Assembly: GCA_963741205.1 (NCBI GenBank)
Contig: CAVUHW010000026.1
Coordinates: 256,001-320,000 of the forward strand
Reading direction: 5' to 3'
Source: Nitrospirota bacterium
GTDB lineage: Bacteria > Nitrospirota > UBA9217
Length of the DNA stretch: 64,000 nt
In this document: positions 40,921-63,760 of the stretch, piece after piece
How the letters are laid out: every line of letters starts with the position of its first letter
Numbering within the stretch: position 1 is the first letter of the stretch
The notes under the pieces: generated by a model
Database searches by the model: none
The model's input: only the letters and a program-made list of their open reading frames with translations
What the model was told of the DNA's origin: nothing
Program-made: the position numbers and the translations under genes

Positions 40921-42178
40921 ATGACCTCCTCTCTCGATTCACATGAACCACAGGAGATTCTCCGGCACCGTCCGTTTGTCCTGTTCTGGTTTGCACGGGT
41001 GGCGTCCATGGTCGCCTTCCAGATGCAGGCCGTTGCCGTGGGTTGGCAGATCTACGCCCTCACCGGCAGTGCGTTGTATCTCGGCCTCGTCGGGCTTGCG
41101 CAGTTCCTGCCCATGTTCCTCCTGACGCTCGCCGTGGGTCACGTTGCAGACCGGTATGATCGCCGATCCATTGCACGGCTCTGTCAGATCATAGAAGGCC
41201 TGGCCGCGTTCGCGCTGGCTTGGGGGAGCGCCGCCGGCTGGCAGAGCAAGGAGACCATCCTCGTAATCATGTTCGTCATCGGCGCCGTGCACGCCTTCGA
41301 AGGGCCGACCATGCAGTCGCTCCTGCCCGGACTTGGTACCGGTCCCGCTTCTTCCGCGGGCGCTTGCCTGGTCCGCGTCGGCAATGCAGACCGCAACCAT
41401 TGTCGGGCCTGCACTCGGCGGTCTCTTGTATACCGTAGGCCCGACCGAGGTCTATGCAGCGGCTGGGCTCCTGTTTCTGGTTGCAAGCGCATTTCTCGGG
41501 CTCATCCGCTCCGTCCGCGCTCCCGTCATACGCGAACCTGCAAGCATCAAATCGGTGTTCGCCGGCATCGCCTTCATCCGCAGTCGCCCCGAGATCTTCG
41601 GCGCCATATCCCTCGACCTCTTTGCCGTGCTTTTGGGCGGTGCTACGGCCCTCTTGCCGATCTATGCCCGTGACATCCTGATAACCGGACCGTGGGGGCT
41701 GGGCCTTCTCCGTTCGGCGCCTGCGGTGGGCGCCCTCGCCATGTCCCTTTTCCTGGCGCGCCATCCGCTCAAGCGCCGCGTAGGAAGGACGATGTTCAAT
41801 GCCGTGGCGATCTTCGGCGTCGCAACGATTGTGTTCGCTCTGTCGACATCCTTCCTCCTGTCCCTGGCCGCCCTTGCCGTGCTCGGAGCCGCCGACGTGA
41901 TCAGCGTCGTCATCAGACACTCGCTCGTCCAGATCAAGACGCCAGACGAAATGCGGGGCCGGGTAAGCGCCGTTAACTCCTTGTTCATCGGAACATCGAA
42001 CCAACTGGGAGAGTTCGAGTCAGGAATCACCGCAGCCTGGTTCGGCGCTGTTTTCGCCGTTCTCATCGGCGGAGTCGGCACGCTCATCGTCGTAGCGCTC
42101 TGGATGCGAATATTCCCGCAGCTCCTTCAGACCGACACCTTGGATTCGGGGAAGGATCATCCAGAAATCTTGACCTGA
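40921..42178 (+). CDS. MFS transporter (EntS/DUF894-like), frameshifted near 41335
   Basis: GHVADRYDRR, ISLDLFAVLLGGATALLPIYA and TPDEMRGRVSAVNSLFIGTSNQLGEFESG. Confidence 0.92.
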
Positions 42179-43487: not shown

Positions 43488-43964
43488 TTACTTCAAAGGT
43501 TTAGAAAGAACATAGTCCCTATCTTTCGCGCCTTCGTGGCAGGAGAGGCAATCCTTTTTAGGGTCCTTGTCGAGCATCTTGCCGTCCGCGCTGAAAGCAT
43601 ACCACTCCCACCCGCCCGTTTGCTGCATCTTGGAATTTTTCTTCATGACTGGGAAGAAGGCGCGCTTGCCCTCGTTCAAAATGCCTCCGCTCTCTACAAT
43701 TTCATAAACTGCGTCCACGATGACGGTTCCGTCAGGATATTTCCCGCCCTTTTCGAATGCTGCAAGCCCTTTACTATTCATGTAGAAGTGATGGATGCCA
43801 TGGAGCGGATGTTCCTTGTCGGTAACGATCAGGGAGCCGATATGCCGGTAAGTCTCCCAATCCTTGGGAAGTACCATGCCCTTTTGCGTCTCGGCCGATA
43901 CGGCGACGACGAGCGCACCTAAACTAAAATAGATTGCCGTGATGAAGATGAATAATTTTTTCAT
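43488..43964 (-). CDS. Cytochrome P460 family / cytochrome c'-beta, periplasmic monoheme
   Basis: Signal peptide, YPDGTVIV, VMKK..TGGWEW.AF and C-terminal CLSCH..DYVLS. Confidence 0.88.
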   Translation of the reverse strand: MKKLFIFITAIYFSLGALVVAVSAETQKGMVLPKDWETYRHIGSLIVTDKEHPLHGIHHFYMNSKGLAAFEKGGKYPDGTVIVDAVYEIVESGGILNEGKRAFFPVMKKNSKMQQTGGWEWYAFSADGKMLDKDPKKDCLSCHEGAKDRDYVLSKPLK

Positions 43965-44127: not shown

Positions 44128-44799
44128 TCAGAACCGGAATCCCGCCTTCAGGGCAACGGTCGTGCCGTCAAGGTCGACGGTCGTGCCGAGAACCTCGCTC
44201 TTCATCACGAAATACCTCCCTTCGAGCCCGACGACAAAGGCACCGAGATTGACGTCGACCCCCAGCCCGCCCTGATACCCGAGGTTTGCCTTGGTCGTCG
44301 AAGCCGATCCGACCTCGATCTTATTGAAATACAGGCCGCCTCCCAGCAGGACATACGGCTCGACTATGGCGATCGGTATGCCGAGCCTGAGGGACAGGTT
44401 CAGAGGGATCGAGTGGACCTTCGCGTTGGTAGAGAATAACTTCCCGTCCGTCGACATATATCCGAGGCCGAGCTCAGCGCCAATATAGGGATTGAACTTG
44501 CCGCCGTAGGCGATCTCCCAATAGGTGCCGGTGCCCGAGTCCTTGACATCCTTTTCTTTCAGCGACCATTCGCCGCCCTTGATGACGAAGTAGGAAGTCC
44601 TGTCATCCTTCTTCGGCGCGGCGGCCGGCGCTGCCGTTGCCGCCGCGGAAGCTGCAGGAGCGGCTGCGGACGTTCCGGTCATCGTCGAGGTCACCGCGGA
44701 CGCAGGAGCCGGAGCTGTTTCCTGGGACAGCGCGGGCGAAGCCGCGATCATGATCCCGCCGATGGACATCCCCATTATTGTCACTATCATTCTCTTCAT
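44128..44799 (-). CDS. Outer-membrane beta-barrel protein (OmpA/OmpW-like) with Ala/Pro linker
   Basis: Signal peptide, alternating beta strands, PYVLLGGGLY and terminal GFRF. Confidence 0.85.
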   Translation of the reverse strand: MKRMIVTIMGMSIGGIMIAASPALSQETAPAPASAVTSTMTGTSAAAPAASAAATAAPAAAPKKDDRTSYFVIKGGEWSLKEKDVKDSGTGTYWEIAYGGKFNPYIGAELGLGYMSTDGKLFSTNAKVHSIPLNLSLRLGIPIAIVEPYVLLGGGLYFNKIEVGSASTTKANLGYQGGLGVDVNLGAFVVGLEGRYFVMKSEVLGTTVDLDGTTVALKAGFRF

Positions 44800-44937
44800 C
44801 GGGGTTCTCCTTTTTTCTCTCTCTATATCACGGTCTTCCGGTCGCATTGACGTTACCGGTCTTGTGGGCTTGGCTTTATCGGCTCCTACCTGATTTGTTT
44901 GCCGCGTGTGTTGTTGTTGTTGTGTGTGTGTGCGCGG

Positions 44938-46576
44938 TCACGTATTGCAGACGATATTGGCGAGTTCCTTCGAAAACGTTTCGATAGTTGACGGAATAGT
45001 CGATGGGGCATTCGACGAGGACCACGGTTTTGAGCGAGAAGGCCTTTCGCAGGACCTCCGACAGGTTATCGCCCTCCTTGACCTTCATGCCGACCGCACC
45101 GTAGCTCTCCGCGTATCTTACGAAATCCGGGTTCGTATACTCGAGCCCGAAGGCGGGATATCCCTTTGCCTGCTGCTCCCACTTGATGAACCCGTAGGCA
45201 TTGTCGTTCAGGACAAGGCAGACAAGGGGAGTATCGTACCTGAGCGCGGTCTCGAGCTCCCGCGAATTCATCATGAACCCGCCGTCCCCCACGACGGCGA
45301 GGACGTTCCGGTCGGGCTTGACCATCTTGGCCGCGATGGCCGCGGGAAGACCCGCGCCCATGGTCGCAAGGGCGTTGTCCAGGATGAACGTGTTCGGTTT
45401 GTAGGTCCGGTAGAGCCGGGAGAACCACAGCTTGTAGATCCCGTTGTCCAGCGTCAGGATGTCCTCGTGCGACATCACCTCGCGCACCCGCCATACGACC
45501 TCCTGCGGGCGTGGGGGGATACTGCTTCTTAAAATCCGAGGAAAGCTTCTTGTCCAGAAATTCCCGGATCGTTCCTGAAGGTCTCGCCCGTTCTTCCTGC
45601 CCGCGACCAACTCCCCGAGCTGCCGGAGCGAGCAGGAAACATCGCCGATGACCTCGATGTCGGGATCATAGTATTTATCGACGACCGCTTCGGAGAAATC
45701 AATGTTGATGATCTTCTTGTCGAGGTCCCTGTTCCAGACGTACGGGGGGTACTCGACGATGTTGTACCCGATCGTGATGATCACGTCCGCCTGGTCGATG
45801 CCGCAGTTGACGTAATCGCGCCGGTGCATGCCCGTCGCAAAGAGGCTGTATTCCGACGCGTCGCTCAGCACGCCCTTGCCCATCTGCGTGTGCACGGCGT
45901 AGATGCCGGTCTTTTCGATGAACTGCATCAGATGCCGGGTGATCAGGTTCCGGTTCGCGCCCGACGACAGGATGATGAGCGGGTTCTTCGCCTGGTTGAT
46001 CATCGAGGCCGCCCGCATGAGGGCCTTGGCGTCCGGCGCCGGCCTCCTGACGAGCCCCCGTTTCTGCACGCACGCATCGGTCTGGCATCCCGCAACGTCC
46101 TCGGGGAGCTCGATATGCACTGCGCCGGGACGCTCGGCCTGAGCGAGCTTGAAGGCGTTCCGGAGGACCGTCGGGATTTCGCCGGGGTCGACGATGGAGA
46201 CGGAGTTCTTGGTGATGGGCCGCATCAGGCTCACGACGTCGATAAGCTGGAACCGCGCCTGCCAGTTCGACCTGACCGCCTTCTGTCCCGAAATGGACAC
46301 GAGCGGCGCGCCGATGAGCTGCGCGTGCGCGACGCCGGTCACCAGGTTCGTCGCGCCGGGGCCGAGGGTCGAGAAGCACACCCCGGCCTTTCCCGTCAGC
46401 CTGCCGTACGTGGCAGCCATGAACGCCGCGGTCTGCTCGTGGCGCGTGATGACGACCTTGATCTTCGAGGTGCGCAGCGATTCAAGGAAATCGAGGTTCT
46501 CTTCCCCGGGCAGGCCGAAGATGTACTCTACCCCTTCTTCCTCAAGCTGCCTCACGAACAGGTCGGATGCCTTCAT
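44938..46576 (-). CDS. ThDP-dependent acetolactate-synthase-like enzyme; probable 2-oxoglutarate decarboxylase (OgdA-like); contains indels
   Basis: GVEYIFGLPGEENL, RHEQ, STLGPGATNL and GDGGFMMN..LND; no ilvH neighbour; adjacent to SSADH. Confidence 0.8.
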
Positions 46577-46708
46577 GCGGACTCCTCTATAATAAAACGA
46601 AGGAGGAAGGTGGACAGGTACGCAGGTCAGTCAAAGCTTCTCGCTTGGACGTGTTGACGTTACATTTTTTCGTCCCTCGTCACCTTCGTCTCTCATCCCT
46701 CGTGTTCC

Positions 46709-48211
46709 TTACTCCCTCACAACCACTGTCTTAACGTTCACGAACTCCTTCAGCCCGTAGTGCGACAGCTCCCTGCCGATGCCGGACTTCTTCACTCCGC
46801 CGAAGGGCAGCCGGGGATCGGACTTCACCATGTCGTTGATCGCGACGGTCCCGCTCTCGATCCGCGCGGCAAGCCGCTCGGCCCGCTCGATGTTCCTGCT
46901 CCAAACCGAAGCGCCAAGCCCGTATTCGGTGTTGTTCGCCGCCCTGACCGCCTCGTCCTCGTCCTTCACCACGATGATCGGCGCGATGGGGCCGAAGACC
47001 TCTTCGGTCAGGACCTTCATGTTCGGCTTGGTATTGATCACCATGCAGGGCGTGAAGAACAAACCCTTCGTGAAGGTCTGTCCCGCCGAGAGCACCCTGG
47101 CCCCTTTCGCCTTTGCGTCCCGCAGCTGTTCCTTCAAGCCATCGAGGATATCCTTCCGCGCCACGGTGCCGATGTCGGTGGTCTCGTCCATGGGATCGCC
47201 GAGCTTCATTTCCTTGAGCCGCGCCAGGAAATGCCTGACAAACTCGTCGGCCACGCTTTCCATGACGATGAATCGTTTTGCCGCGATGCAGCTCTGGCCG
47301 GTGTTGATCATGCGGGCATTAGCCGCCATACGGCCCGCCTTTTCCACGTCTGCGTCATCCAGAACGATGTACGGGTCGGAGCCGCCCAATTCGAGCACAA
47401 CCTTCTTGATCCTCCTGCCCGCATGGGCCCCGATCTCCTCGCCCGCCCGGTTGCTTCCGGTGAGCGACACGGCATCGACAAGGTCGTCATCGATGAGCCT
47501 CAGGGCTTCCGCAGCGTCGATCAGCGCCGTTTTGAACACGTTCTCCGGGAAACCTGCTTTGGTAAAGGCCTCCTCGATCGCCAGCGCCGTCTGCGGCACG
47601 TTCGACGCATGCTTCAGCAGCACAACATTCCCCGCTGTGACCGCGGGAACGCCGAACCGGAAGGCTTGCCAGAACGGGAAGTTCCAGGGCATGACCGCCA
47701 GCACGATGCCGAGGGGCTGGAACATGACATAGCTCTTCTTTGCCTCGGTCTTGATCTCCTCAGGCTTAAGGAACGAAACGGCGTTCCCGGCATAATAGTC
47801 CGCAAGCACCGCGCATTTTTCAACCTCGGCAAGCGCTTCCTTGATGGGTTTCCCCATCTCGCTCGTCATAAGCTCCGCATAGCGCCGCTTCTCGGCGCGC
47901 AGCACCTCCCCGAGCTTCGTGAGGAGAATCGCACGGCCCGCAACTGGCACGTCCCGCCACTTGACGAAAGCATCACGGGACTCTTTCACCTGCCCGTTCA
48001 GTTCCCACGTAGTCATGAGCGGAAACTTTTTCATCACCTCTTCGGTGAAGGGATTGATCGAATGCAGCTTCTTCGGCGTCTGCTGTGTTTTTGATATCGC
48101 AACAGTTGCCTTCATAATTTTCACCCCCTTTTTCGGGGACACAATATTTTTCGCCCTTGCTCGTTGTGTTCCTGCTTTCCTTTTCTCAACGCTTGTTTTC
48201 TTCGTTGACAT
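46709..48211 (-). CDS. NAD(P)-dependent succinate-semialdehyde dehydrogenase (Sad/SsaD type)
   Basis: VMPWNFPFWQAFR, LKHASNVP, LELGGSDP, NTGQSCIAAKR and PFGGVKKSGIGRELS. Confidence 0.9.
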   Translation of the reverse strand: MSTKKTSVEKRKAGTQRARAKNIVSPKKGVKIMKATVAISKTQQTPKKLHSINPFTEEVMKKFPLMTTWELNGQVKESRDAFVKWRDVPVAGRAILLTKLGEVLRAEKRRYAELMTSEMGKPIKEALAEVEKCAVLADYYAGNAVSFLKPEEIKTEAKKSYVMFQPLGIVLAVMPWNFPFWQAFRFGVPAVTAGNVVLLKHASNVPQTALAIEEAFTKAGFPENVFKTALIDAAEALRLIDDDLVDAVSLTGSNRAGEEIGAHAGRRIKKVVLELGGSDPYIVLDDADVEKAGRMAANARMINTGQSCIAAKRFIVMESVADEFVRHFLARLKEMKLGDPMDETTDIGTVARKDILDGLKEQLRDAKAKGARVLSAGQTFTKGLFFTPCMVINTKPNMKVLTEEVFGPIAPIIVVKDEDEAVRAANNTEYGLGASVWSRNIERAERLAARIESGTVAINDMVKSDPRLPFGGVKKSGIGRELSHYGLKEFVNVKTVVVRE

Positions 48212-48341
48212 CCGTCGTCCTCCATGATTTCTAATCTCAGCGTTTAAAGCTCATGGACCGAAAGAAACCGAGCCTTAATTCCGCATCCGCTGCGCCCACG
48301 TTACGATGCCTGGCACGGTTGAATTCCGCACTCGCATCAGA

Positions 48342-49523
48342 TCACTTCCTCTGCCCGATCGGCTCATAGGCGCAGCCGGTCTTGCCGCAGTAATTGCCGA
48401 TATACTCCGACGACGGCCGGTAGAGGGCCGGCTTTTCCTGGGCGTCGCCGAACTTCTCCTCGATGATATGCGCGGTCCAGCCCGCGATCCGGGCCACGGC
48501 AAAGACCGGCGTCATGAGATCGTGCGGAATGCCCATCATATGGTAGACCGGCGCGCTGTAGAAATCGACGTTCGGCTTGATCGTGGTCTTGCCCCGTTTG
48601 ACGAACTCGGCCACGGCCGCCTCCTCGATCTGCGTTGACAGCCCGCACCACTGTTCCTGTCCCGTCTTCTTGCCGATCCTGAAGCACATGTCCTTCAGAA
48701 ACCGCGCCCTCGGGTCAGTCGTTTTATACACCGCGTGGCCCATACCCATGATCTTCTGGCCGCTGTCGAGCTGTTTCCTTACCCACCCGGCAACGTCCTT
48801 CTCGTGCTCCAGTTCCTGGAGCATCTTCATGACCTGCGCATTCGCCCCGCCGTGAAGGCTGCCGGAAAGTGCTCCCACGCCCGCCGCAACGCCGGCGTAC
48901 ATGTGCGCGCGCGTGGATACGACCTCGCGGCACGCGAAGGTGGACGCATTGAAGGAATGATCGGCGTGAAGCAGGAGCGCCGTATCGAGATCATGCGCGA
49001 TCTCCGCATCGGGATAGGTCCCCTTGAGAAGCCACAGAAAGTTTCCGGCATGGGACAGGTTTTCATCGGACGGCAGCGGCTCATGCCCCCTCCGCAGCCG
49101 GTCCCAGCCTGCCACGATCATGGGAATCCGCGCGATAAGCCTGATGGCCTTGGAGATGTTCGCCTCCCTTGTTTCCGACTGCAAATCGGGGTCGGCCGTG
49201 GCCAGGATCGGGATCGAGGCCTGGAGCACATCCATGGGATGGGATGTCTTCGGCAGTTTCCTGAGGCTGTCGAAAACGAACGACGGAAGCTCCCCCGCCT
49301 CGATCAGCTTGCGCTTGAAATCCTCGAGCTGCTCCTCGTTCGGCAGCGCGTCGTGAAGAAGCAGATAGGCCGTTTCCTCGAAGGTCGAGTTCCGCGCCAG
49401 GTCCTCGATGCGGTACCCGCGGTAAATAAGGATGCCGTTCTCGCCGTCCACGTGGGATATCTTCGTGTCCGCCACGGTCACGCCGCGAAGACCGATGTTC
49501 TTTACTTTCAAGGCCTCTGGCAT
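48342..49523 (-). CDS. gltA: Citrate synthase
   Basis: GLRGV, LHADHSFNAST, GSLHGGAN, MGMGHAVYK..DPRA and PNVDFYS. Confidence 0.95.
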   Translation of the reverse strand: MPEALKVKNIGLRGVTVADTKISHVDGENGILIYRGYRIEDLARNSTFEETAYLLLHDALPNEEQLEDFKRKLIEAGELPSFVFDSLRKLPKTSHPMDVLQASIPILATADPDLQSETREANISKAIRLIARIPMIVAGWDRLRRGHEPLPSDENLSHAGNFLWLLKGTYPDAEIAHDLDTALLLHADHSFNASTFACREVVSTRAHMYAGVAAGVGALSGSLHGGANAQVMKMLQELEHEKDVAGWVRKQLDSGQKIMGMGHAVYKTTDPRARFLKDMCFRIGKKTGQEQWCGLSTQIEEAAVAEFVKRGKTTIKPNVDFYSAPVYHMMGIPHDLMTPVFAVARIAGWTAHIIEEKFGDAQEKPALYRPSSEYIGNYCGKTGCAYEPIGQRK

Positions 49524-49717
49524 CGCAGCCTCCCTTTTGGCTCTTTTATGTTTGAGATCGCACCCATAGTGACGCCTTTCTTGAAGACCGGTCACGACCG
49601 CATGAGACCCTTCGCAAGGAAGGGCTTGAGGATGGATAAAGATTCTAAGAACCACTTAATCTTCCCTTAAGAGTCGTCTTACTTCGAGTTGGCATGCGGC
49701 TTAAAATTTCATAAGCT

Positions 49718-51663
49718 TCATGCCTTTACCAGCAGTTCCTCTTTCACAAAATTCAGCGTCCCGCCGGCCAGCAGATGTTTTCTCTGGCGGTCGGACACGT
49801 CCAGAATCGTCATGATCACCCTGCCGTCGACCTCCACGGGTATCTCCCGGTCCCCCCGTTCGATCCGCTTCCGCACATCGGGAAACACGACCTTCGTCCC
49901 TTTCTTCAGGAGGTCATAGTCCTTCGGGTCCTTGAAGGTAAGCGGGAGAATGCCGAAGTTGCAGAGATTGGACTTGTGGATGCGGGCAAAGCTCTTGACG
50001 ATCTTCGCGCGGACGCCCAGATACCGGGGAGCAAGCGCCGCATGTTCGCGGCTCGACCCCTGGCCGTAGTTCTCGCCGCCCACGACGACCACCGTGCCCC
50101 TCGCCTTGCACTCCTTCGCGAAATCGGGGTCGACCTGCGAGAACACGAACTCGGCCAATGCCTCGATATTGGAACGGAACGGCAGCACCCGGTTTCCCGC
50201 CGGCATGATCCCGTCGGTGGACATGTTGTCTCCCACCTTCAGCACCACCTCGGCCGCGAGCGTGTCGGGAAGCGCGTCGAGCTCGGGCAGCGGCTTGATG
50301 TTCGGCCCGCGCACGATCTCCGTCCCGGCAAGTTCTTCGGACGGGAAGAATGATAGACCTCTCATCGATCACATACTGTTTCGGGTCCTCGATTCGGGGA
50401 TACGCCATTTCCTTCGCAAGTTCGCGGGGATCGGTGATCACGCCTTTTAGCGCCGCCGCGGTCGCCGTCTCCGGCGAGCAGAGATAGACCTGGTCGTCCT
50501 TGGTGCCCGCTCCTGCCCGGGAAGTTCCGCGGGAAGGTGCGAAGGCTCACCTCGCCGGTGCCGGGCGCCTGGCCCATGCCGATGCAGCCCTGGCAGCCGG
50601 GTTCATGCACGCGCGCGCCCGAAGTCAAGAAAGCGAGGAGCCCGCCCGCCTGATACACATTTTCGAGCACCTGCCTGCTGCCGGGGTTCACGTGGAACGA
50701 CGTATTCGGGATGAACGCGCCTGCCTTCCAGCATCCTGGCCGAGACCATCAGGTCCCGGAAGGACGAGTTCACGCTGCTGCCCACGATGGCCTGGTCCAC
50801 TTTGATGCCGGCGATCTCGCGCACCGGCACCACGTTTCCGGGCGACGACGGCTTGGCGATCAGCGGCTCGAGCTTCGACAAGATCGATCTCGGCGTGTTC
50901 GTCATACTCTGCGCCCTCGTCGGCGGAGAGCGGGACCCAGGCATCGCCCCGGCCCTGGGCATCAGGTATTCCCGGGTGCGCTCGTCGGACGGAAAGATGG
51001 AGGTCGTGGCCCCGGTCTCGGTGCCCATGTTGCCGATGGTCTCCCGGTCCGTGGCGGACAGGGTCGGGACCCCCGGGCCGTAGTACTCGATGATCTTGCC
51101 CACGCAGCCCTTGACGTCGTAGCGGCGCAGCATTTCGAGGATCACGTCCTTGGCGCTCACCCAGTCGGGAAGTCTGCCCGTGAGCCTGACGCCGAGCACC
51201 TTGGGGCAGGGGAGATGATAGGGATAGCCGGCCATGGCCAGGGCCACGTCGAGACCGCCCGCGCCGATGCCGAGCATCGAGACGCCGGCGGCGCCGGGCG
51301 TATGGCTGTCCGCGCCGAAAAGGGTTTTGCCCGGAACGCCGAAGCGCTCCATGTGCACCTGGTGCGAAACTCCGTTGCCCGGCCTGCTGAAATGGAGGCC
51401 GTATCTGGACGCGGCGGTCTGGAGGAATTTGTGGTCGTCGGCGTTCTTGTTATCGGTCTGGAGAAGGTTGTGGTCCACGTACTGCGCCGCAAGTTCCGCC
51501 TTTACCCGGTGAGGCCCAGGGCCTCGAACTCGAGCATGGCGAGCGTGCCGGTCGCGTCCTGGAGCAGCGTGTGGTCGATCCGGATGCCGATCTCCCTGCC
51601 GGGTACGAGTTCACCCTCCACCAAGTGGGCTTCCAGTATCTTATAAGTAAGGTTTTTTTGCAT
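49718..51663 (-). CDS. Aconitate hydratase (single-chain, about 640 aa), multiple indels
   Basis: QDATGTLA, DHNLLQ, GADSHT, CQGCIGMG, RTFPRNFPGR and NYGQGSSREHAALAP. Confidence 0.9.
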
Positions 51664-56555: not shown

Positions 56556-57827
56556 TCATAAATTCCCGCGCAATCTTTCCGCGTTCAGTATCCTCTTGAC
56601 CGCCAGTTCATATGCCGCCTTGCGCATGCGGCACCGGGCCTCGCGGCAATGGCCGCTGACGTCATTATAAGCGGTGATCATGATCTCCCGGAGGCGCGAC
56701 AGGACTTTCTCCTCCGGCCACGTATCGTTGCTCAAGTTCTGGCTCCACTCGAAGTAGCTCACCACGACACCTCCCGCATTCGCGAGAATGTCCGGGATGA
56801 GAAAAATATTTCTGTCGAACAGGATATCGTCCGCGGCCGAGGTCGTCGGTGCGTTGGCGAGTTCCAGGATGATCTTTGCCTTCACGTCTTTCGCATTATT
56901 CGCATCGATCTGGTTGGAAAGCGCCGCGGGGACGAGGACGTCGCAGTCGACCGTCAGAAGCTCTGCGTTCGTGATTTCCTGTGCGCCCGGGAATTCCGCT
57001 ACGCTGCCCGTCTGCTTCTTGTGCTCCATCACCGCCGGAATATCGAGACCTCCGGGATCCAGAACGCCGCCTTTCACGTCGCTTACGGCGATGACACGGT
57101 ATCCCCGTTCGTGAAGGAGCCTCGCGGCGTTCTCGCCCACGTTGCCGAATCCCTGCACTGCCACGCGCAGTCCGCGGGGCTCCATCCCCTGTTCCGCGAG
57201 GGCCTGCTCGAGCACATGGATCCCGCCCAGGGCGGTGGAATACCTTCGCGCTACGATGCCTCCCAGCTCCGGCGGCTTGCCCGTGACCACGGCGGGCGAA
57301 TGCTCGCGCCTGATCCGCTCGTACTCGTCGAGGATCCACGCCATGATCTGCTCGTCGGTGTAGACGTCCGGCGCGGGAATGTCTTTAAACGGTCCGATAT
57401 AGTCCGCGATGGCGCGGATGTACCCGCGCGTCACGAGTTCGAGGTCCCGCCGCGAAAGGTCCATGGGATTGACGACAACGCCGCCCTTCGCGCCGCCGAA
57501 GGGGATGTTCACAACGGCGCACTTGAGCGCCATGAGAAAGGCGAGTTCGCCCGCGTGGTTGGCGTCCATCTCGGGATGGAAGCGGATGCCGCCCTTGGCC
57601 GGGCCCCGCGCATCGTTGTACAGGACGCGGTAGCCGGTAAAGATCTGCGTCTTTCCCGTGGTCATCTTCACCGGAAAGCTGACGGTAAAGGACTGCTTTG
57701 GAACGGACAGCAGGTCCAGCTCGTCCTGCGAGAGGCCGAGGTCCGCGTAGATGTTCTGGAGCTCCGTCATGCCGAGGCTGCGGAGGTCCTGCTCGTCGCG
57801 GTGTAATCGGTCATGGTCACGTTGCAT
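56556..57827 (-). CDS. gdhA: Glu/Leu/Phe/Val dehydrogenase (glutamate dehydrogenase)
   Basis: GPAKGGIRFHP, FGGAKGG, DIPAPDV, QGFGNVG and ANAGGVVVSYFEW. Confidence 0.93.
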   Translation of the reverse strand: MQRDHDRLHRDEQDLRSLGMTELQNIYADLGLSQDELDLLSVPKQSFTVSFPVKMTTGKTQIFTGYRVLYNDARGPAKGGIRFHPEMDANHAGELAFLMALKCAVVNIPFGGAKGGVVVNPMDLSRRDLELVTRGYIRAIADYIGPFKDIPAPDVYTDEQIMAWILDEYERIRREHSPAVVTGKPPELGGIVARRYSTALGGIHVLEQALAEQGMEPRGLRVAVQGFGNVGENAARLLHERGYRVIAVSDVKGGVLDPGGLDIPAVMEHKKQTGSVAEFPGAQEITNAELLTVDCDVLVPAALSNQIDANNAKDVKAKIILELANAPTTSAADDILFDRNIFLIPDILANAGGVVVSYFEWSQNLSNDTWPEEKVLSRLREIMITAYNDVSGHCREARCRMRKAAYELAVKRILNAERLRGNL

Positions 57828-57830
57828 GGA

Positions 57831-59383
57831 TTACCTCGGATGAATGAAGTTCAGGTATGCATTCGCAAGTGGCATCGGAGTCAAGGAATACATCTTCATG
57901 ACGTCAACTTGCTCCTCGCTATCATTCGGGCATGCCGAACTGTGCCCTCGAACTATTGCTTTAGTCAATCCCGTCTTCTTCGCCGCATCGGCGACAGCGG
58001 CGGAAACGGACGCAACGACGGTGCGGTCGAAAATGCTCGGGATGATGTAATCCTCGTGCAGTTCTTCGGTAGCGACCGTATGGGCGATGGCGTGGGCAGC
58101 CGCGAGTTTCACTGCCTCGTTCACGCCCCGCGCCCGAACGTCCAGAGGCCCCGGAAGATGCCGGGGAAGCCGAGCATATTGTTGATCTGGTTCGGGTAGT
58201 CGGACCTTCCCGTTGCCATGACCCGCGCCAGCGAATGCGACCTCTTCAGGCGAGATCTCCGGGTCGGGATTGGCAAGGGCGAACACGATGGGGTCCCTGG
58301 CCATCTTGCGTACATCGTCGGCGGTGATGACGTTCGGCGCGGAAAGGCCGATGAACACGTCGGCGCCTTTCATAGACGTCCGATATGCTTCCCCTGCACC
58401 TCGCGCGGATTGGTTATCTTCGCCAGTTGCCGCTTGTAGGGGTCCATGCCGTGCTTCCTGCCGGCATACAGGGCGCCGGTCCTGTCACACACCGTGATGT
58501 CCTTTACGCCAGAGGCGAGGAGTATCCTGGTCACGGCCGAACCTGCAGCACCCGCGCCCACCACGACGACCTTGAATTTTTTCAGGTCCCGTTTCAAAAG
58601 CCGCGAGACGTTGATAAGCGCCGCCAGCGCAACAACACGACGTCCCGTGCTGGTCGTCATGAAACACGGGGATGTCGAGCAGTTTCCTGAGCCTGCTCTC
58701 AACCTCGAAGCAGTGGGGCGCGGAGAAGTCTTCGAGATTGATGCCGCCGAATGCCGGCGCGATGTTTTTCACCGTGGCCACGATCTCATCCACATCCTTG
58801 GTCGCGAGCACGATCGGGAACGGCGTCGATGCCGGCGAATTCCTTGAAGATCATGGCCTTGCCTTCCATGACAGGAAGCGCCGCCTCGGGCCCGATGTCG
58901 CCGAGGCCCAGGACCGCGGTGCCGTCGGAAATAACGGCGACGGAATTGCCTTTGATGGTGTAGCGGTAGGCATGCTCTTTATGCTCATGGATGTCCATGC
59001 AGACCCGCGCCACGCCCGGCGTATAGACCTTGGACAGGTCGTTGCGGTCCCTTACCGGAAGCTTGTTCCTGATCTCGATCTTGCCGCCCTCATGGGCGGA
59101 GAAGGTGCGGTCCGAGACCCTGATGACCTTGACGCCCGCCACGGTCTTGATGGCCTTTACGATGGCTTTTTCGTGCATCCTCGTTCTGGGCGTTCGACGG
59201 TAACGTCCCGGATGATCTTGCCCTTCTCCACGCGCACGATGTCCACGGAGCCCAGGTCTCCGCCGGCGCTCGAAATGGCCGTTGCGATCTTCGCGAACAT
59301 CCCGACCTGTTCTCGATCTCGACCCTGATGGTGATGCTGTAGCTGGGGCTGCAGCTGTATCCGGGCGTGCACACGTTGTCCAT
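57831..59383 (-). CDS. NAD-dependent malic enzyme with N-terminal ACT domain, multiple indels
   Basis: [15 protein letters not shown] domain, [30 protein letters not shown] and NQINN. Confidence 0.9.
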
Positions 59384-59586
59384 GGCGTTTCTCCTTTACC
59401 ACTTATTATAGATTCAATCCCGGCGATGGTCAACTCACGGCCGCTCATACATAGTATACATGTACTGCTGCTCAAGAGGGTTAACATCCTTTTATAAAAA
59501 AATCACCGTGCAAAAATCGGATAAAGTATGTATAATTGTAACCATTGTCGTCAGGACCATCGATCAACCGACCATTGAATATCGTT

Positions 59587-60981
59587 ATGACTGACTACCG
59601 CATCGAAAAAGACTCTCTCGGCGACGTACGGGTTCCCTCGGACGCGCTCTACAGCGCCCAGACCCAGCGGGCAGTCGAAAACTTTCCCGTTAGCGGCATC
59701 CGCTTTCCCCGGGTTTTCATCAAGGCACTCAGCCTCATCAAGGCGACGGCCGCTGAAGTCAATGCCGGCATGGGACTGCTCGATGCCGGGATCGCCCAGG
59801 CTATCTTCGATGCCTCCCTCGAAGCGGCCGACGGCAAATGGGACGAGCAGTTTCCCCTCGATATCTTCCAGACCGGATCGGGAACGTCGACGAACATGAA
59901 CGCCAACGAGGTGATCGCGACGCGGGCGACGCAGCTTCTCGGCAAGCCGGATAAGCCGGTCCATCCCAACAATCACGTGAACATGGGCCAGTCGTCCAAT
60001 GACGTCATTCCGGCAGCGATCCACGTAAGCGCCTATCTCGAAACAAGCGAAGTGCTCATTCCTGCGCTGAAGCATCTTCACAGCGCGCTCAAAAAACGGG
60101 AAGCGGAGTTTCATGATATCGTAAAAACCGGGCGCACTCACCTGATGGACGCCATGCCTGTGAAGCTGAGCCAGGAAATCGGCGGATGGGCCTTCCAAGT
60201 GCAGCAGGCCATCGAACGCATTGAATCCACGCTCCCCCGTCTTGCGAAGCTTGCCCTCGGCGGCACTGCGGTCGGAACGGGCATCAATGCACCCAAGGAA
60301 TTCGGGAAGATCGTAGCCCAGCGGCTTGCCGGCAGGACGAACCTGCCCTTCAGGGAAACAGACAATCACTTCGCAGCACAGGCGACCATGGACACTGCTG
60401 TGGAGCTTTCGGGCCAGTTGAAAACCACGGCCTCTTCATTCATGAAGATGGCAAACGACCTGCGCTGGATGAACAGCGGGCCCATTGCCGGCCTCGGCGA
60501 GATAGCGCTTCCCGCCCTGCAACCCGGTTCGAGCATCATGCCCGGCAAGGTGAACCCGGTCATGTGTGAGATGATGATGATGGTGTCCGCCCAGGTCACG
60601 GGAAACGATGCGACAATCGCTATCTGCAACCAGCAGGGGAATTTCGAGCTGAACGTCATGCTGCCGGTCATTGCCCATAATCTTCTTCAGTCCGTCACGC
60701 TGCTCGGAAACGCATCCCGCCTGCTGGCGGACAAGGCAATCGCCGGTTTCACCGTGAACCGCGAGCGCATCGCGGGACTCGTGGACAAGAACCCGATACT
60801 CGTCACGGCGCTGAATCCCGTAATCGGGTACGACAAGGCGGCACAGATCGCAAAGAAGGCTTATGCCGAGGGCCGGTCCTTAAAGGAAGTTGCCGCAGAG
60901 ATGACGAACCTGTCCAAAGAAGAGCTGGACAAATTGCTCGATCCGAGGCCCATGACCGAGGGCGGGATTAGCGTCGCATAG
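59587..60981 (+). CDS. fumC: Class II fumarate hydratase
   Basis: QTGSGTSTNMNANEV, GRTHLMDA and GSSIMPGKVNP. Confidence 0.96.
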   Translation: MTDYRIEKDSLGDVRVPSDALYSAQTQRAVENFPVSGIRFPRVFIKALSLIKATAAEVNAGMGLLDAGIAQAIFDASLEAADGKWDEQFPLDIFQTGSGTSTNMNANEVIATRATQLLGKPDKPVHPNNHVNMGQSSNDVIPAAIHVSAYLETSEVLIPALKHLHSALKKREAEFHDIVKTGRTHLMDAMPVKLSQEIGGWAFQVQQAIERIESTLPRLAKLALGGTAVGTGINAPKEFGKIVAQRLAGRTNLPFRETDNHFAAQATMDTAVELSGQLKTTASSFMKMANDLRWMNSGPIAGLGEIALPALQPGSSIMPGKVNPVMCEMMMMVSAQVTGNDATIAICNQQGNFELNVMLPVIAHNLLQSVTLLGNASRLLADKAIAGFTVNRERIAGLVDKNPILVTALNPVIGYDKAAQIAKKAYAEGRSLKEVAAEMTNLSKEELDKLLDPRPMTEGGISVA

Positions 60982-61047: not shown

Positions 61048-61717
61048 ATGTTTCTCCCAACATCCACCGTCGGCAGAAAAATCATCATGGCCATTACCGG
61101 CCAGATCCTGGTCTTCTTCATCGTCTTTCATATATCCGGCAACTCGTCGATCTTTTTCCACACGCTCAACGCCTATGTCGTATTTCTCCACTCCCTTCCC
61201 GTTGTTATCTGGGGCGGCCGGCTCTTCCTGCTCGCCGCCTTCGGCCTTCATCTCTGGTACGGCGCCGTATTGAAGCTCGAAAATTATGAAGCGAAACCTC
61301 AGCCCTATGCGGTTACTCACTATTATCAGGCCACCTTCGCGGGCAGGAATCAAATCTGGACCGGCGTTATCATCGCGGCTTTCCTCGTGTACCATCTTCT
61401 CCACTTCACGCTCCAGGTGACGAACCCTATCTATCGCGGCAGTCTCCAACAAGGACGCCCTCGGCAGACCGGATACGCTCATGATGGTGGTCAGAAGTTT
61501 TCAGAATATCGGAATTTCAGGAATCTACCTGCTGTCTCTTGCCGCCCTTGGACTGCATCTGCTCCACGGCATCCAGAGTTCATTCCAGTCCTGGGGACTC
61601 ACAAACGACCAAACGCTGCCGGTCATTGAAGCATCGGGAACCGCGGCTTCTATCGCACTCTTTTTCTGGTATTGCGCGATCCCGGTTTCGATTGTGTTGG
61701 GGATATTTAAGGGATGA
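61048..61717 (+). CDS. sdhC: Succinate dehydrogenase/fumarate reductase cytochrome b subunit, frameshifted
   Basis: VGRKIIMAITG..FHISGN..HLWYG..YHLLHFT..HLLHGIQSSFQS. Confidence 0.9.
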
Positions 61718-61846
61718 GATGATCCGATAGCAGCCATTCCCACACGGCAGGCATGGATTTTCTCTTTTTCACTTCCTGGCTTTGTGCGAGACAGGTTTTA
61801 TGCGACGTTGTCATATTCAGTTCTCGTTATCTGGAGCTTATCAAAG

Positions 61847-63760
<1,914 letters not shown>

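What the first reader, a model, noticed from the sequence alone, without database searches (positions are those of the whole stretch)
44938..51663. Cyanobacterial-type TCA bypass (2-oxoglutarate decarboxylase + SSADH) co-oriented with aconitase and citrate synthase
Seen: a co-directional run acn-gltA-SSADH-'ALS-like' with no ilvH/ilvC/ilvD. The ThDP enzyme starts GVEYIFGLPGEENL..RHEQ..YGRLTGKAGVC.STLGPGATNL. Established: in cyanobacteria, an enzyme annotated as acetolactate synthase (OgdA) and an adjacent succinic semialdehyde dehydrogenase (SsaD) close the TCA cycle in place of 2-oxoglutarate dehydrogenase and succinyl-CoA ligase. Inference: this non-cyanobacterial organism runs the same shunt, encoded with core TCA genes, so an automated 'ilvB' label would be wrong.
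Basis: partly seen in the sequence, partly recalled or inferred. Interest (0 to 1): 0.72.

Follow-up and report, generated by a model that had tools for sequence, protein, structure and literature searches.

The report
Likely 2-oxoglutarate-to-succinate bypass genes, Nitrospirota
Two neighbouring genes in an uncultured Nitrospirota genome, one that databases call "acetolactate synthase" and one a succinic-semialdehyde dehydrogenase, most likely form the coenzyme-A-free shortcut from 2-oxoglutarate to succinate known from cyanobacteria, a known pathway in a new host with no enzyme assayed.

Summary
On the minus strand lie a ThDP enzyme (44938-46576), an aldehyde dehydrogenase (46709-48211), citrate synthase (48342-49655) and an aconitase (49718-51663). 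No ilvN/C/D lies beside them. The aconitase is broken into three frames and the ThDP gene has one frameshift at its 3' end; these are probably assembly indels.

The reading is partly supported. The dehydrogenase is an SsaD-type SSADH. Its best solved relative is the Synechococcus PCC 7002 enzyme, and all succinic-semialdehyde, catalytic and NADP residues are kept. The ThDP enzyme belongs to NCBIfam NF006187 and lies outside the AlsS and IlvB clades. A true ilvB-ilvN pair lies elsewhere. No sucA, sucCD, recognisable 2-oxoglutarate:ferredoxin oxidoreductase or glutamate decarboxylase was found. The four-gene order is kept in 9 of 9 relatives' loci. Fumarase, sdhCA, glutamate dehydrogenase and malic enzyme lie within 12 kb.

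Against it:
- No cyanobacterial OgdA sequence could be obtained, so the key phylogeny was not run.
- The window enzyme sits in a different subclade from the best proxy for OgdA.
- It differs at 5 of 11 docked active-site positions.

Non-cyanobacterial cases are already in print, and this scan noted the same pair before on other DNA, twice in Nitrospirota. Verdict: new member of a known kind.

The parts
44938..46576 (-). ThDP-dependent enzyme of NCBIfam NF006187 (labelled 'acetolactate synthase large subunit'); candidate 2-oxoglutarate decarboxylase. The ORF as read runs to 44876, because a one-base frame change near 44982 replaces the last 14 residues.
   Evidence: NF006187 768.7 bits (cut-off 509); AlsS and IlvB models are below their cut-offs. 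Three ThDP domains. Homologs are 544 aa. C-terminus is in the other frame. Trees.
46709..48211 (-). SsaD/Sad-type NADP-dependent succinic semialdehyde dehydrogenase.
   Evidence: Best solved relatives are 3VZ1/3VZ3/4IT9 at 440 bits. PMC7510979 names 3VZ3 as Synechococcus PCC 7002 A2771. W130, N131, W135, R139, K154, S157, E228, C262 and S419 are all kept. NF006915 scores 518 bits, below its cut-off of 730.
48342..49655 (-). Citrate synthase, type II. Relatives are 405-409 aa, so the true start is probably some 30-45 codons inside this ORF.
   Evidence: TIGR01800 427.4 bits (cut-off 421.3); PF00285 434 bits. Relatives' lengths. A second, weaker CS-like gene lies in a methylcitrate-like cluster on C13.
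49718..51663 (-). Aconitate hydratase of the 647-aa PRK07229 type, read in two frames with three frame changes near 51511-51517, 50709 and 50500.
   Evidence: Pieces match NF005558 positions 63-323 and 441-644. Mapped against an intact 647-aa relative. Relatives' contigs differ by one base at 51510, 50705 and 50506 (table 4).
56556..57827 (-). Glutamate dehydrogenase (glutamate to and from 2-oxoglutarate).
   Evidence: NF040817 467 bits, below its cut-off of 750; no rival family scores higher.
57831..59487 (-). Malic enzyme, in fragments (two ORFs in different frames).
   Evidence: NF009501 matches to profile positions 256-408 and 19-108.
59545..60981 (+). Class II fumarate hydratase / aspartase family protein.
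   Evidence: TIGR00979 574.8 bits (cut-off 664.75); NF008909 (aspartate ammonia-lyase subfamily) 536.8 bits (cut-off 510).
61048..61629 (+). Succinate dehydrogenase / fumarate reductase cytochrome b subunit, b558 family.
   Evidence: TIGR02046 93.7 bits (cut-off 96).
61784..63760 (+). Succinate dehydrogenase / fumarate reductase flavoprotein subunit.
   Evidence: NF005749 1145.6 bits (cut-off 866); TIGR01811 918.8 bits. The same gene lies about 20-30 kb from the ThDP gene in G001, G002, G004 and G006.

Best explanation
The ThDP enzyme (44938-46576) decarboxylates 2-oxoglutarate to succinic semialdehyde and CO2. The enzyme encoded directly upstream (46709-48211) oxidises the semialdehyde to succinate with NADP+, using Cys308 as nucleophile and Glu274 as base (window numbering).

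Together they carry carbon from 2-oxoglutarate to succinate without coenzyme A or ferredoxin. They stand in for 2-oxoglutarate dehydrogenase and succinyl-CoA synthetase, which this genome and most of its genus lack. The pair sits in a block of cycle genes with citrate synthase and aconitase; fumarase and succinate dehydrogenase lie 12 kb away. Isocitrate dehydrogenase and malate dehydrogenase are elsewhere in the genome.

Shown: gene identities, family membership, SSADH residues, gene order, and absences in the genomes searched. Inferred: the substrate of the ThDP enzyme, co-transcription, and that the cycle runs closed.
For: 1. The dehydrogenase is an SsaD-type SSADH. Its best solved relatives are 3VZ1/3VZ3/4IT9 (440 bits). 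PMC7510979 identifies 3VZ3 as Synechococcus PCC 7002 A2771, with the SSA carboxylate at W135, R139 and S419 (passages). All nine listed residues are kept.
2. In Synechococcus, ogdA-ssaD (A2770-A2771) is an operon (PMC5160925, passages). Here the two genes are co-directional and 132 bases apart.
3. The ThDP enzyme scores 768.7 bits on NF006187 (cut-off 509) and is below the cut-offs of the AlsS and IlvB models. In the tree it lies outside AlsS (SH-aLRT 100) and IlvB (99) (FastTree agrees).
4. Lys at the place of MaKGD K386, which is docked to 2-oxoglutarate, is kept. The AlsS rows have Y, H or Q there and the IlvB rows have Q.
5. The genome has its own ilvB-ilvN pair.
6. sucA was not found in G000. 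It is over cut-off in 0 of 26 family genomes and 0 of 5 same-genus genomes that are 90-100% complete.
7. sucC and sucD were not found in G000. sucC is present in 1 of 5 same-genus genomes.
8. The oxidoreductases found in G000 are VorB-type, IOR and POR. TIGR03710 is over cut-off in 0 of 5 genomes and NF007206 in 0 of 26.
9. Glutamate decarboxylase is found in 0 of 9 same-genus genomes, so a GABA shunt is not an evident source of the semialdehyde.
10. The order acn-CS-ALDH-ThDP is kept in 9 of 9 relatives' 20-kb loci from 5 genera. The ThDP ortholog is in 20 of 26 family genomes.
11. Across phyla, 33 of 80 named loci with an NF006187 enzyme have an SsaD-signature ALDH beside it.
12. The rest of the cycle is present. 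Fumarase and sdhCA are in the window. NADP-IDH is on C21. An MDH/LDH-family gene is on C28.
Against: 1. No characterised cyanobacterial OgdA could be put in the tree.
2. The window clade lies in an 18-row subclade (support 100). That subclade is separate from the Methanoperedens/Methanosarcinales clade, which best matches the published MaKGD residues.
3. At the 11 MaKGD positions the window clade reads N-I-Y-K-A-M-D-[F/Y]-F-E-Y, only 6 of 11 matches. The docked salt-bridge Lys471 is Glu in 120 of 121 close homologs. AlsS rows match 7-8 of 11. Those roles come from docking only, and K386, K471 and Q254 were not among the variants described in section 2.6. Lys471 is also not kept in Methanococcoides, which has an SsaD neighbour.
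4. Other members of the same subclade lack an ALDH neighbour (Caballeronia, Paraburkholderia, Rhizobium pRL12) or have a different ALDH. The family is therefore probably not uniform in function.
5. The pair is not a strict replacement. All 3 family genomes with sucC over cut-off (G032, G037, G043) also carry the ThDP ortholog, and so does G001.
6. G000 is only 84.5% complete, and a VorB-type oxidoreductase of unknown substrate is present.
7. The SSADH scores below NCBI's equivalog cut-off (518 against 730).
8. The aconitase and the ThDP gene carry frame changes in this assembly.
Confidence: 0.62

Rival explanations
1. The ThDP enzyme decarboxylates a different 2-oxo acid (for example pyruvate, 2-oxoadipate or an aromatic 2-oxo acid), and the dehydrogenase oxidises that aldehyde. 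The pair would then be a general oxo-acid-to-acid route that merely lies beside cycle genes.
For: The window clade differs from the MaKGD docked residues at 5 of 11 places, including K471E. NF006187 enzymes pair with two unlike ALDH types. The two fused forms, P0122 and P0180, carry the lactaldehyde-dehydrogenase-like type rather than the SsaD type. This points to several substrates within the family.
Against: The neighbour keeps W135, R139 and S419, which hold the carboxylate of succinic semialdehyde in the Synechococcus structure. 2-Oxoglutarate is the simple ThDP route to that aldehyde. The cycle-gene context is kept in 9 of 9 relatives' loci.
Confidence: 0.15
2. The pair is real and makes succinate from 2-oxoglutarate, but it is a side route (redox balance, semialdehyde removal, succinate for biosynthesis). 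It does not close an oxidative cycle, and the organism runs a branched or reductive pathway.
For: The ThDP ortholog co-occurs with sucC in G001, G032, G037 and G043. Many family genomes carry a roughly 600-aa oxidoreductase alpha subunit that matches the whole NF007206 profile at about 180 bits. The flavoprotein is of the fumarate reductase / succinate dehydrogenase type and its direction is unknown.
Against: In G002 (100% complete, 2 contigs) sucA, sucC and a full OAFO-type oxidoreductase were all not found. Citrate synthase, aconitase, fumarase and sdh lie with the pair.
Confidence: 0.13
3. The ThDP enzyme is a carboligase, as its label says: an acetolactate synthase without a small subunit, or a 2-oxoglutarate-using ligase. 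The dehydrogenase beside it would be unrelated.
For: Its best solved relatives are all named acetolactate synthase: 13bb 390 bits, 9zgl 370 bits, 4rjj 336 bits. AlsS is nested within the same radiation rather than being an outgroup.
Against: It is below both AlsS cut-offs (453.6 against 510; 421.2 against 551.1) and the IlvB cut-off (384.5 against 538.35). It lies outside the AlsS clade, which has support 100. Adjacency to an ALDH is kept across phyla. No ilvN lies beside it.
Confidence: 0.07
4. The cluster is decaying in this strain: the frame changes in the aconitase and the ThDP gene are real mutations.
For: There are four frame changes in 6.7 kb. The runs laid hold relatives, not this strain (share of words at most 0.12), so they cannot show what this strain's DNA reads.
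Against: Frame breaks are seen in other conserved genes of this assembly: a C49 gene in three frames, the C21 aconitase paralog, ilvB on C20, malic enzyme, and a split MFS transporter. All the relatives examined have intact genes. Relatives' contigs from four studies differ from the window by exactly one base at each aconitase junction.
Confidence: 0.1

Closest known systems
OgdA/SsaD bypass of cyanobacteria (Synechococcus sp. PCC 7002 A2770/A2771; Synechocystis Sll1981; Microcystis MaKGD)
   Same: - An 'acetolactate synthase'-labelled ThDP enzyme lies next to an SSADH, as in the ogdA-ssaD operon (PMC5160925).
- The SSADH is the nearest solved relative of the window's, and all substrate, catalytic and NADP residues are shared.
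- The catalytic Glu, the GDGG...NDN motif and the Lys386 equivalent are kept.
- The host lacks 2-oxoglutarate dehydrogenase.
   Different: - The host is a Nitrospirota bacterium, going by the names of close homologs.
- The pair lies within a block with citrate synthase and aconitase.
- 5 of 11 docked active-site positions differ.
- Orthology to OgdA was not tested, and by proxy the enzyme is in another subclade.
Predicted 2-oxoglutarate decarboxylase + SSADH sets in Gammaproteobacteria (Thiomicrorhabdus and relatives)
   Same: PMC9751133 (passage) states that in Thiomicrorhabdus strains the 2-oxoglutarate dehydrogenase is replaced by such a set, which may complete an oxidative cycle. The named loci here also show gammaproteobacterial NF006187 enzymes with SsaD-signature neighbours.
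   Different: Those gammaproteobacterial enzymes fall in the other large subclade, with the V-A-H-K signature. They are about 36-39% identical to the window enzyme.
Catabolic acetolactate synthase AlsS (Bacillus subtilis 4RJJ, Klebsiella 1OZF)
   Same: Same fold and domain order. It scores 336 and 309 bits against the window enzyme and arises within the same radiation.
   Different: The AlsS rows form their own clade with support 100. They have Gln at the places of K386, A408 and K471. The window enzyme is below both AlsS cut-offs.
Biosynthetic acetohydroxyacid synthase IlvB/IlvN
   Same: Same ThDP superfamily.
   Different: TIGR00118 scores 384.5 bits against a cut-off of 538.35. It is a separate clade with support 99. 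The genome's true ilvB lies next to ilvN on C20.

Membership tests
NCBIfam NF006187 (PRK08322, 'acetolactate synthase large subunit') | Whole-protein score over the curated cut-off of 509 bits | tested here: met
   768.7 bits over profile positions 2-539 of 548; repeated on the genome.
Cyanobacterial OgdA / KGD (EC 4.1.1.71) | ThDP enzyme with N, middle and C domains, a catalytic Glu (E50 in MaKGD) and the GDG...N(D)N diphosphate/Mg motif (D435, D462) | tested here: met
   PF02776, PF00205 and PF02775 are present. Glu47 lies in RHEQ; GDGG and LNDN are present. The roles are taken from PMC10418658, section 2.6.
Cyanobacterial OgdA / KGD (EC 4.1.1.71) | Residues docked to 2-oxoglutarate in MaKGD (Q254, V382, K386, A408, L467, K471) | tested here: not met
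   K386 and A408 are kept. V382 is N, L467 is F and K471 is E. The Q254 place, by fixed offset, reads H. The roles rest on docking only.
Cyanobacterial OgdA / KGD (EC 4.1.1.71) | Groups with characterised OgdA sequences in a tree, apart from AlsS and IlvB | not testable with these tools
   No cyanobacterial OgdA sequence could be fetched. 'Apart from AlsS and IlvB' was tested and met. By proxy clade the enzyme is not a sister.
Cyanobacterial OgdA / KGD (EC 4.1.1.71) | Adjacent, co-directional ssaD | tested here: met
   The SSADH gene ends 132 bases upstream on the same strand. The arrangement is kept in 9 of 9 relatives' loci.
Cyanobacterial OgdA / KGD (EC 4.1.1.71) | Converts 2-oxoglutarate to succinic semialdehyde | not testable with these tools
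   This needs an enzyme assay.
SsaD / Sad (YneI)-type succinic semialdehyde dehydrogenase | Catalytic Cys262, Glu228 and Asn131; SSA-carboxylate residues Trp135, Arg139 and Ser419 | tested here: met
   All are kept. The roles come from PMC7510979 passages.
SsaD / Sad (YneI)-type succinic semialdehyde dehydrogenase | NADP-preference residues Lys154 and Ser157 | tested here: met
   Both are kept. The roles come from PMC7510979.
SsaD / Sad (YneI)-type succinic semialdehyde dehydrogenase | Score over an NCBIfam SSADH equivalog cut-off | tested here: not met
   NF006915 518.4 against 730; NF010575 452.7 against 855; NF006916 362.9 against 521.
Catabolic acetolactate synthase AlsS | Score over the TIGR02418 or NF006378 cut-off, and membership of the AlsS clade | tested here: not met
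   421.2 against 551.1 and 453.6 against 510. The enzyme lies outside the AlsS clade, which has support 100.
Biosynthetic AHAS large subunit IlvB | Score over the TIGR00118 cut-off and an adjacent small subunit ilvN | tested here: not met
   384.5 against 538.35. The only ilvN is at C20:329150-329620, beside another ThDP gene.

The most novel reading that the evidence does not exclude
The window enzyme would represent a separate, uncharacterised subclade of ALS-like ThDP enzymes. Its pocket signature is N-I-Y-K...F-E, conserved in 117 of 121 close homologs. This subclade would have been recruited on its own to decarboxylate 2-oxoglutarate. In this Nitrospirota family it would be the only route from 2-oxoglutarate to succinate, built into a block of cycle genes. 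That would give a complete citric acid cycle that needs neither coenzyme A nor ferredoxin at this step, in a lineage usually modelled with ferredoxin-dependent enzymes.
Probability: 0.3. Interest if true: 0.45.

Novelty: new member of a known kind. Interest (0 to 1): 0.3.

Why it matters
If the reading holds, metabolic reconstructions of these soil and sediment Nitrospirota should show a closed citric acid cycle rather than a gap after 2-oxoglutarate. The automatic name 'acetolactate synthase large subunit' would then mislead pathway tools for a whole family of genomes.

The pairing data also show that NF006187 enzymes sit beside two unlike aldehyde dehydrogenase types. The family therefore probably holds more than one activity. 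The window's subclade has no assayed member that I could find.

Tried and rejected
Getting a cyanobacterial OgdA sequence failed by every route.

- A numbering fingerprint from PMC10418658 picked P0196. The single genome-contig scan spent on it showed it to be Rhodobacteraceae.
- tblastn against plasmids with the window enzyme and with P0182 listed no cyanobacterial record. Only 60 of 384 and 25 of 196 records were shown, so others may exist.
- The ESM Atlas look-up on P0130 gave no useful taxa.
- Homolog searches with P0130 and P0182 returned Methanoperedens/Methanosarcinales and then Acidobacteriota, Dadabacteria, Planctomycetota and others. No named cyanobacterium appeared among 120 rows each.
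- Plasmid records of Synechococcus PCC 7002 and Synechocystis PCC 6803 gave only record handles, not genomes.
- The supplement of PMC10418658 holds only model coordinate files. I did not extract a sequence from them.

Other steps that led nowhere:

- The promoter and terminator scan found 4 and 11 sites against 2.6 and 8.1 expected, with none in the gaps between the genes. It says nothing about an operon.
- The sequencing runs hold at most 0.12 of the stretch's words. They are relatives, and I draw no habitat or expression claim from them.
- The Rosetta-stone argument from the fusions P0122 and P0180 is weaker than it first looked. Their dehydrogenase half is not the SsaD type.
- Literature searches: 'PRK08322' returned 0 papers. 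'oxoglutarate decarboxylase' + 'semialdehyde dehydrogenase' + 'Nitrospirota' returned 0. '2-oxoglutarate decarboxylase' + 'Nitrospirae' returned 1, which was irrelevant.


Full report
**What is there.** The window is G000:C26:256001-320000 of a 4.27-Mb, 50-contig assembly rated 84.5% complete. Close homologs of the ThDP enzyme (78-88% identical) carry the names 'Nitrospirota bacterium' where a source names them. Four genes lie on the minus strand:
- a 566-aa ThDP-enzyme ORF (44876-46576);
- a 500-aa aldehyde dehydrogenase (46709-48211);
- a citrate synthase (48342-49655);
- an aconitase of the 647-aa PRK07229 type (49718-51663).

Downstream lie an outer-membrane beta-barrel protein and a cytochrome P460, with no ilv genes.

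**Frame changes.** Against an intact 647-aa aconitase of a same-genus relative, the window's gene changes frame three times, near 51511-51517, 50709 and 50500. The ThDP ORF leaves the frame of its 544-aa homologs after residue 530. The homologs' C-terminus is readable in another frame, which stops near 44938.

Other conserved genes of this assembly are also broken: a C49 gene read in three frames, an aconitase paralog on C21, ilvB on C20, malic enzyme, and a split MFS transporter. Contigs of relatives from four studies differ from the window by exactly one base at 50506, 50705 and 51510 (table 4). Those runs hold relatives, not this strain (share of words at most 0.12). Assembly indels are therefore the more likely cause, but this is not proven.

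**The dehydrogenase.** Its best solved relatives are 3VZ1, 4IT9, 3VZ2 and 3VZ3 (436-440 bits), followed by the Sad/YneI enzymes. PMC7510979 (passages read) identifies 3VZ3 as the SSADH A2771 of Synechococcus sp. PCC 7002. It places the carboxylate of succinic semialdehyde at Ser419, Trp135 and Arg139. It gives Cys262 and Glu228 as the catalytic residues and Lys154 and Ser157 as the cofactor determinants. All of these, plus Trp130 and Asn131, are kept in the window protein. The protein stays below NCBI's SSADH equivalog cut-offs (518 against 730). It is the only ALDH of this type in the assembly; the others are at most 27% identical.

**The ThDP enzyme.** It scores 768.7 bits on NF006187 (cut-off 509). 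It falls below the cut-offs of AlsS (453.6 against 510; 421.2 against 551.1) and IlvB (384.5 against 538.35). No solved structure named 2-oxoglutarate decarboxylase appeared among the 60 rows shown of 72. The best hits are 'acetolactate synthase' 13bb (390 bits) and AlsS entries.

I built two trees from:
- representatives at 50% identity, labelled by NCBIfam;
- named loci;
- orthologs from relatives;
- the genome's own paralog and its own IlvB.

In the IQ-TREE run (67 rows, LG+G4, SH-aLRT), IlvB-type rows form a clade (support 99) and AlsS rows form a clade (100). The window clade sits in an 18-row subclade (100) with enzymes of Caballeronia, a Hyphomicrobiaceae MAG, a Polyangiales MAG, a Patescibacteria MAG and the fused form P0122. 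FastTree on 126 rows agrees. AlsS is one branch within the wider radiation, not an outgroup to it.

**Comparison with the characterised enzyme.** PMC10418658 (sections 1, 2.5 and 2.6 read) lists the residues of Microcystis KGD that contact ThDP and docked 2-oxoglutarate. I read eleven of them by fixed offset from the GDGG motif.
- The Methanoperedens/Methanosarcinales clade matches 10 of 11. It has the same Glu-to-Asp spacing (385) and a Gln at the place of Q254. I use it as a proxy for OgdA.
- The window clade reads N-I-Y-K-A-M-D-[F/Y]-F-E-Y, which is 6 of 11. This signature is found in 117 of 121 close homologs, with Glu at the place of K471 in 120 of 121.
- AlsS rows match 7-8 of 11, with Gln at K386, A408 and K471.
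- The Lys386 equivalent is kept in the NF006187 rows printed, and it is absent from the AlsS and IlvB rows shown there.
- Lys471 is not kept in Methanococcoides either, although that enzyme has an SsaD neighbour.

The lysine roles are from docking; K386, K471 and Q254 were not among the variants described in section 2.6.

**Genome content.**
- sucA: no match in G000; 0 of 26 family genomes over cut-off; 0 of 5 same-genus genomes that are 90-100% complete.
- sucC and sucD: only faint matches in G000. sucC is over cut-off in 3 of 26 family genomes and in 1 of 5 same-genus genomes (G001).
- Oxidoreductases in G000 are a VorB-type enzyme, an indolepyruvate enzyme and a pyruvate enzyme. TIGR03710 is over cut-off in 0 of 5 genomes and NF007206 in 0 of 26. 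Many family genomes outside this genus's complete members, however, hold a roughly 600-aa alpha subunit that matches the whole profile at about 180 bits.
- A true ilvB-ilvN pair lies at C20:329150-331434.
- Glutamate decarboxylase: 0 of 9 same-genus genomes. No aminotransferase is over the GABA-transaminase cut-off in 9 of 9.
- Isocitrate lyase: a full match only in G001, of 5 genomes.
- A second NF006187 paralog (44% identical) lies at C20:222527-224137 without an ALDH neighbour. Its clade includes a Thermodesulfovibrio enzyme that does have an SsaD-type neighbour 70% identical to the window's.

**Surroundings.** The window also holds glutamate dehydrogenase (56556-57827), malic enzyme fragments (57831-59487), a class II fumarase/aspartase family gene (59545-60981), sdhC (61048-61629) and the sdhA/frdA flavoprotein (61784-63760). 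NADP-isocitrate dehydrogenase is on C21 and an MDH/LDH-family gene is on C28. A second citrate-synthase-like gene lies on C13, beside an ICL/PEP-mutase family gene and an aconitase-family gene. This looks like a methylcitrate cluster, which leaves the window's gene as the likely cycle enzyme.

**Conservation.**
- The order acn-CS-ALDH-ThDP is kept in 9 of 9 twenty-kb loci from relatives of 5 genera.
- Among the named loci, 19 carry a ThDP gene at least 70% identical to the window's. All 19 have the ALDH beside it and 18 have citrate synthase next. Some of these are the same genomes as the 9 loci.
- The ortholog is found in 20 of 26 family genomes, including the three that have sucC. The pair is therefore not a strict replacement.

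**Across phyla.** Of 80 named loci with an NF006187 enzyme, 42 have an ALDH in the 4-kb flank.
- 33 carry the SsaD signature. They are Nitrospirota, Thermodesulfovibrio, Methanococcoides, a Hyphomicrobiaceae MAG, and Vibrio-, Francisella- and Legionella-like Gammaproteobacteria.
- 1 is intermediate.
- 8 are of another type, with F, N, H and R at those places. This type scores best on a lactaldehyde dehydrogenase model.

The two ThDP-ALDH fusions among the representatives carry this second type. They therefore link the ThDP family to aldehyde oxidation in general, not to succinic semialdehyde.

[quoted passage not shown] PMC9751133 (one passage) says that Thiomicrorhabdus strains replace 2-oxoglutarate dehydrogenase by such a set. 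I found no paper that links the pair to Nitrospirota (searches; the one hit, PMC6131200, is irrelevant). The library lacks most subscription journals.

This scan noted the same pair before on other DNA. It did so twice in Nitrospirota (e1-931487, e1-3691150) and also in SUP05, Arcobacter, Marinimicrobia and others. Those are unchecked notes and I do not count them as support.

**Verdict.** The gene pair most likely is a 2-oxoglutarate decarboxylase plus SSADH bypass (confidence 0.62). It is a known pathway in a new host. The open point is that the ThDP enzyme belongs to an unassayed subclade with an altered pocket.

Noticed in passing
G000:C20:222527-224137 (locus L141:6516-8168, minus strand): There is a second NF006187 paralog, 44% identical to the window enzyme. 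It has the V-T-C-K...L-K-Y signature and no ALDH neighbour. Its clade includes a Thermodesulfovibrio enzyme that sits beside an SsaD-type ALDH 70% identical to the window's.
   Followed up: partly
Named loci L055-L134; proteins P0122 and P0180: Two unlike ALDH types sit beside NF006187 enzymes. 33 loci have the SsaD type and 8 have a lactaldehyde-dehydrogenase-like type. The two ThDP-ALDH fusion proteins carry the second type.
   Followed up: partly
window 40921-42178 (+), 57831-59487 (-); G000 C49:12278-13385, C21:19244-21058, C20:329832-331434: Many conserved genes of this assembly are split between frames: an MFS transporter, malic enzyme, a C49 gene, a second aconitase and ilvB. This points to indel errors across the whole assembly.
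   Followed up: partly
window 43488-43964 (-) and 44128-44847 (-): A cytochrome P460 family protein and an outer-membrane beta-barrel protein lie directly downstream of the ThDP gene.
   Followed up: no
G000:C13:26455-32491: This looks like a methylcitrate cluster. A second citrate-synthase-like gene (30-40% identical, read in two pieces) lies beside an ICL/PEP-mutase family gene and an aconitase-family gene.
   Followed up: no
G001 (same genus): C9:1067101-1068255 and C1:98897-100144: Of the five same-genus genomes searched, only this one has a sucC over cut-off and a full isocitrate lyase. It also carries the ThDP-SSADH cluster.
   Followed up: no
Proteins P0127 and P0239: Relatives of the ThDP enzyme are fused to other domains: a C-terminal cyclic-nucleotide-binding domain in P0127 and an N-terminal FlK-type thioesterase domain in P0239.
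   Followed up: no
Locus L157 (Rhizobium johnstonii 3841 pRL12) and locus L158 (Sphingobium sp. YG1 pYGP1): Plasmid-borne members about 50% identical to the window enzyme. On pRL12 the gene lies near dctA and a LysR regulator, with no ALDH. On pYGP1 an aldehyde dehydrogenase gene follows directly.
   Followed up: no
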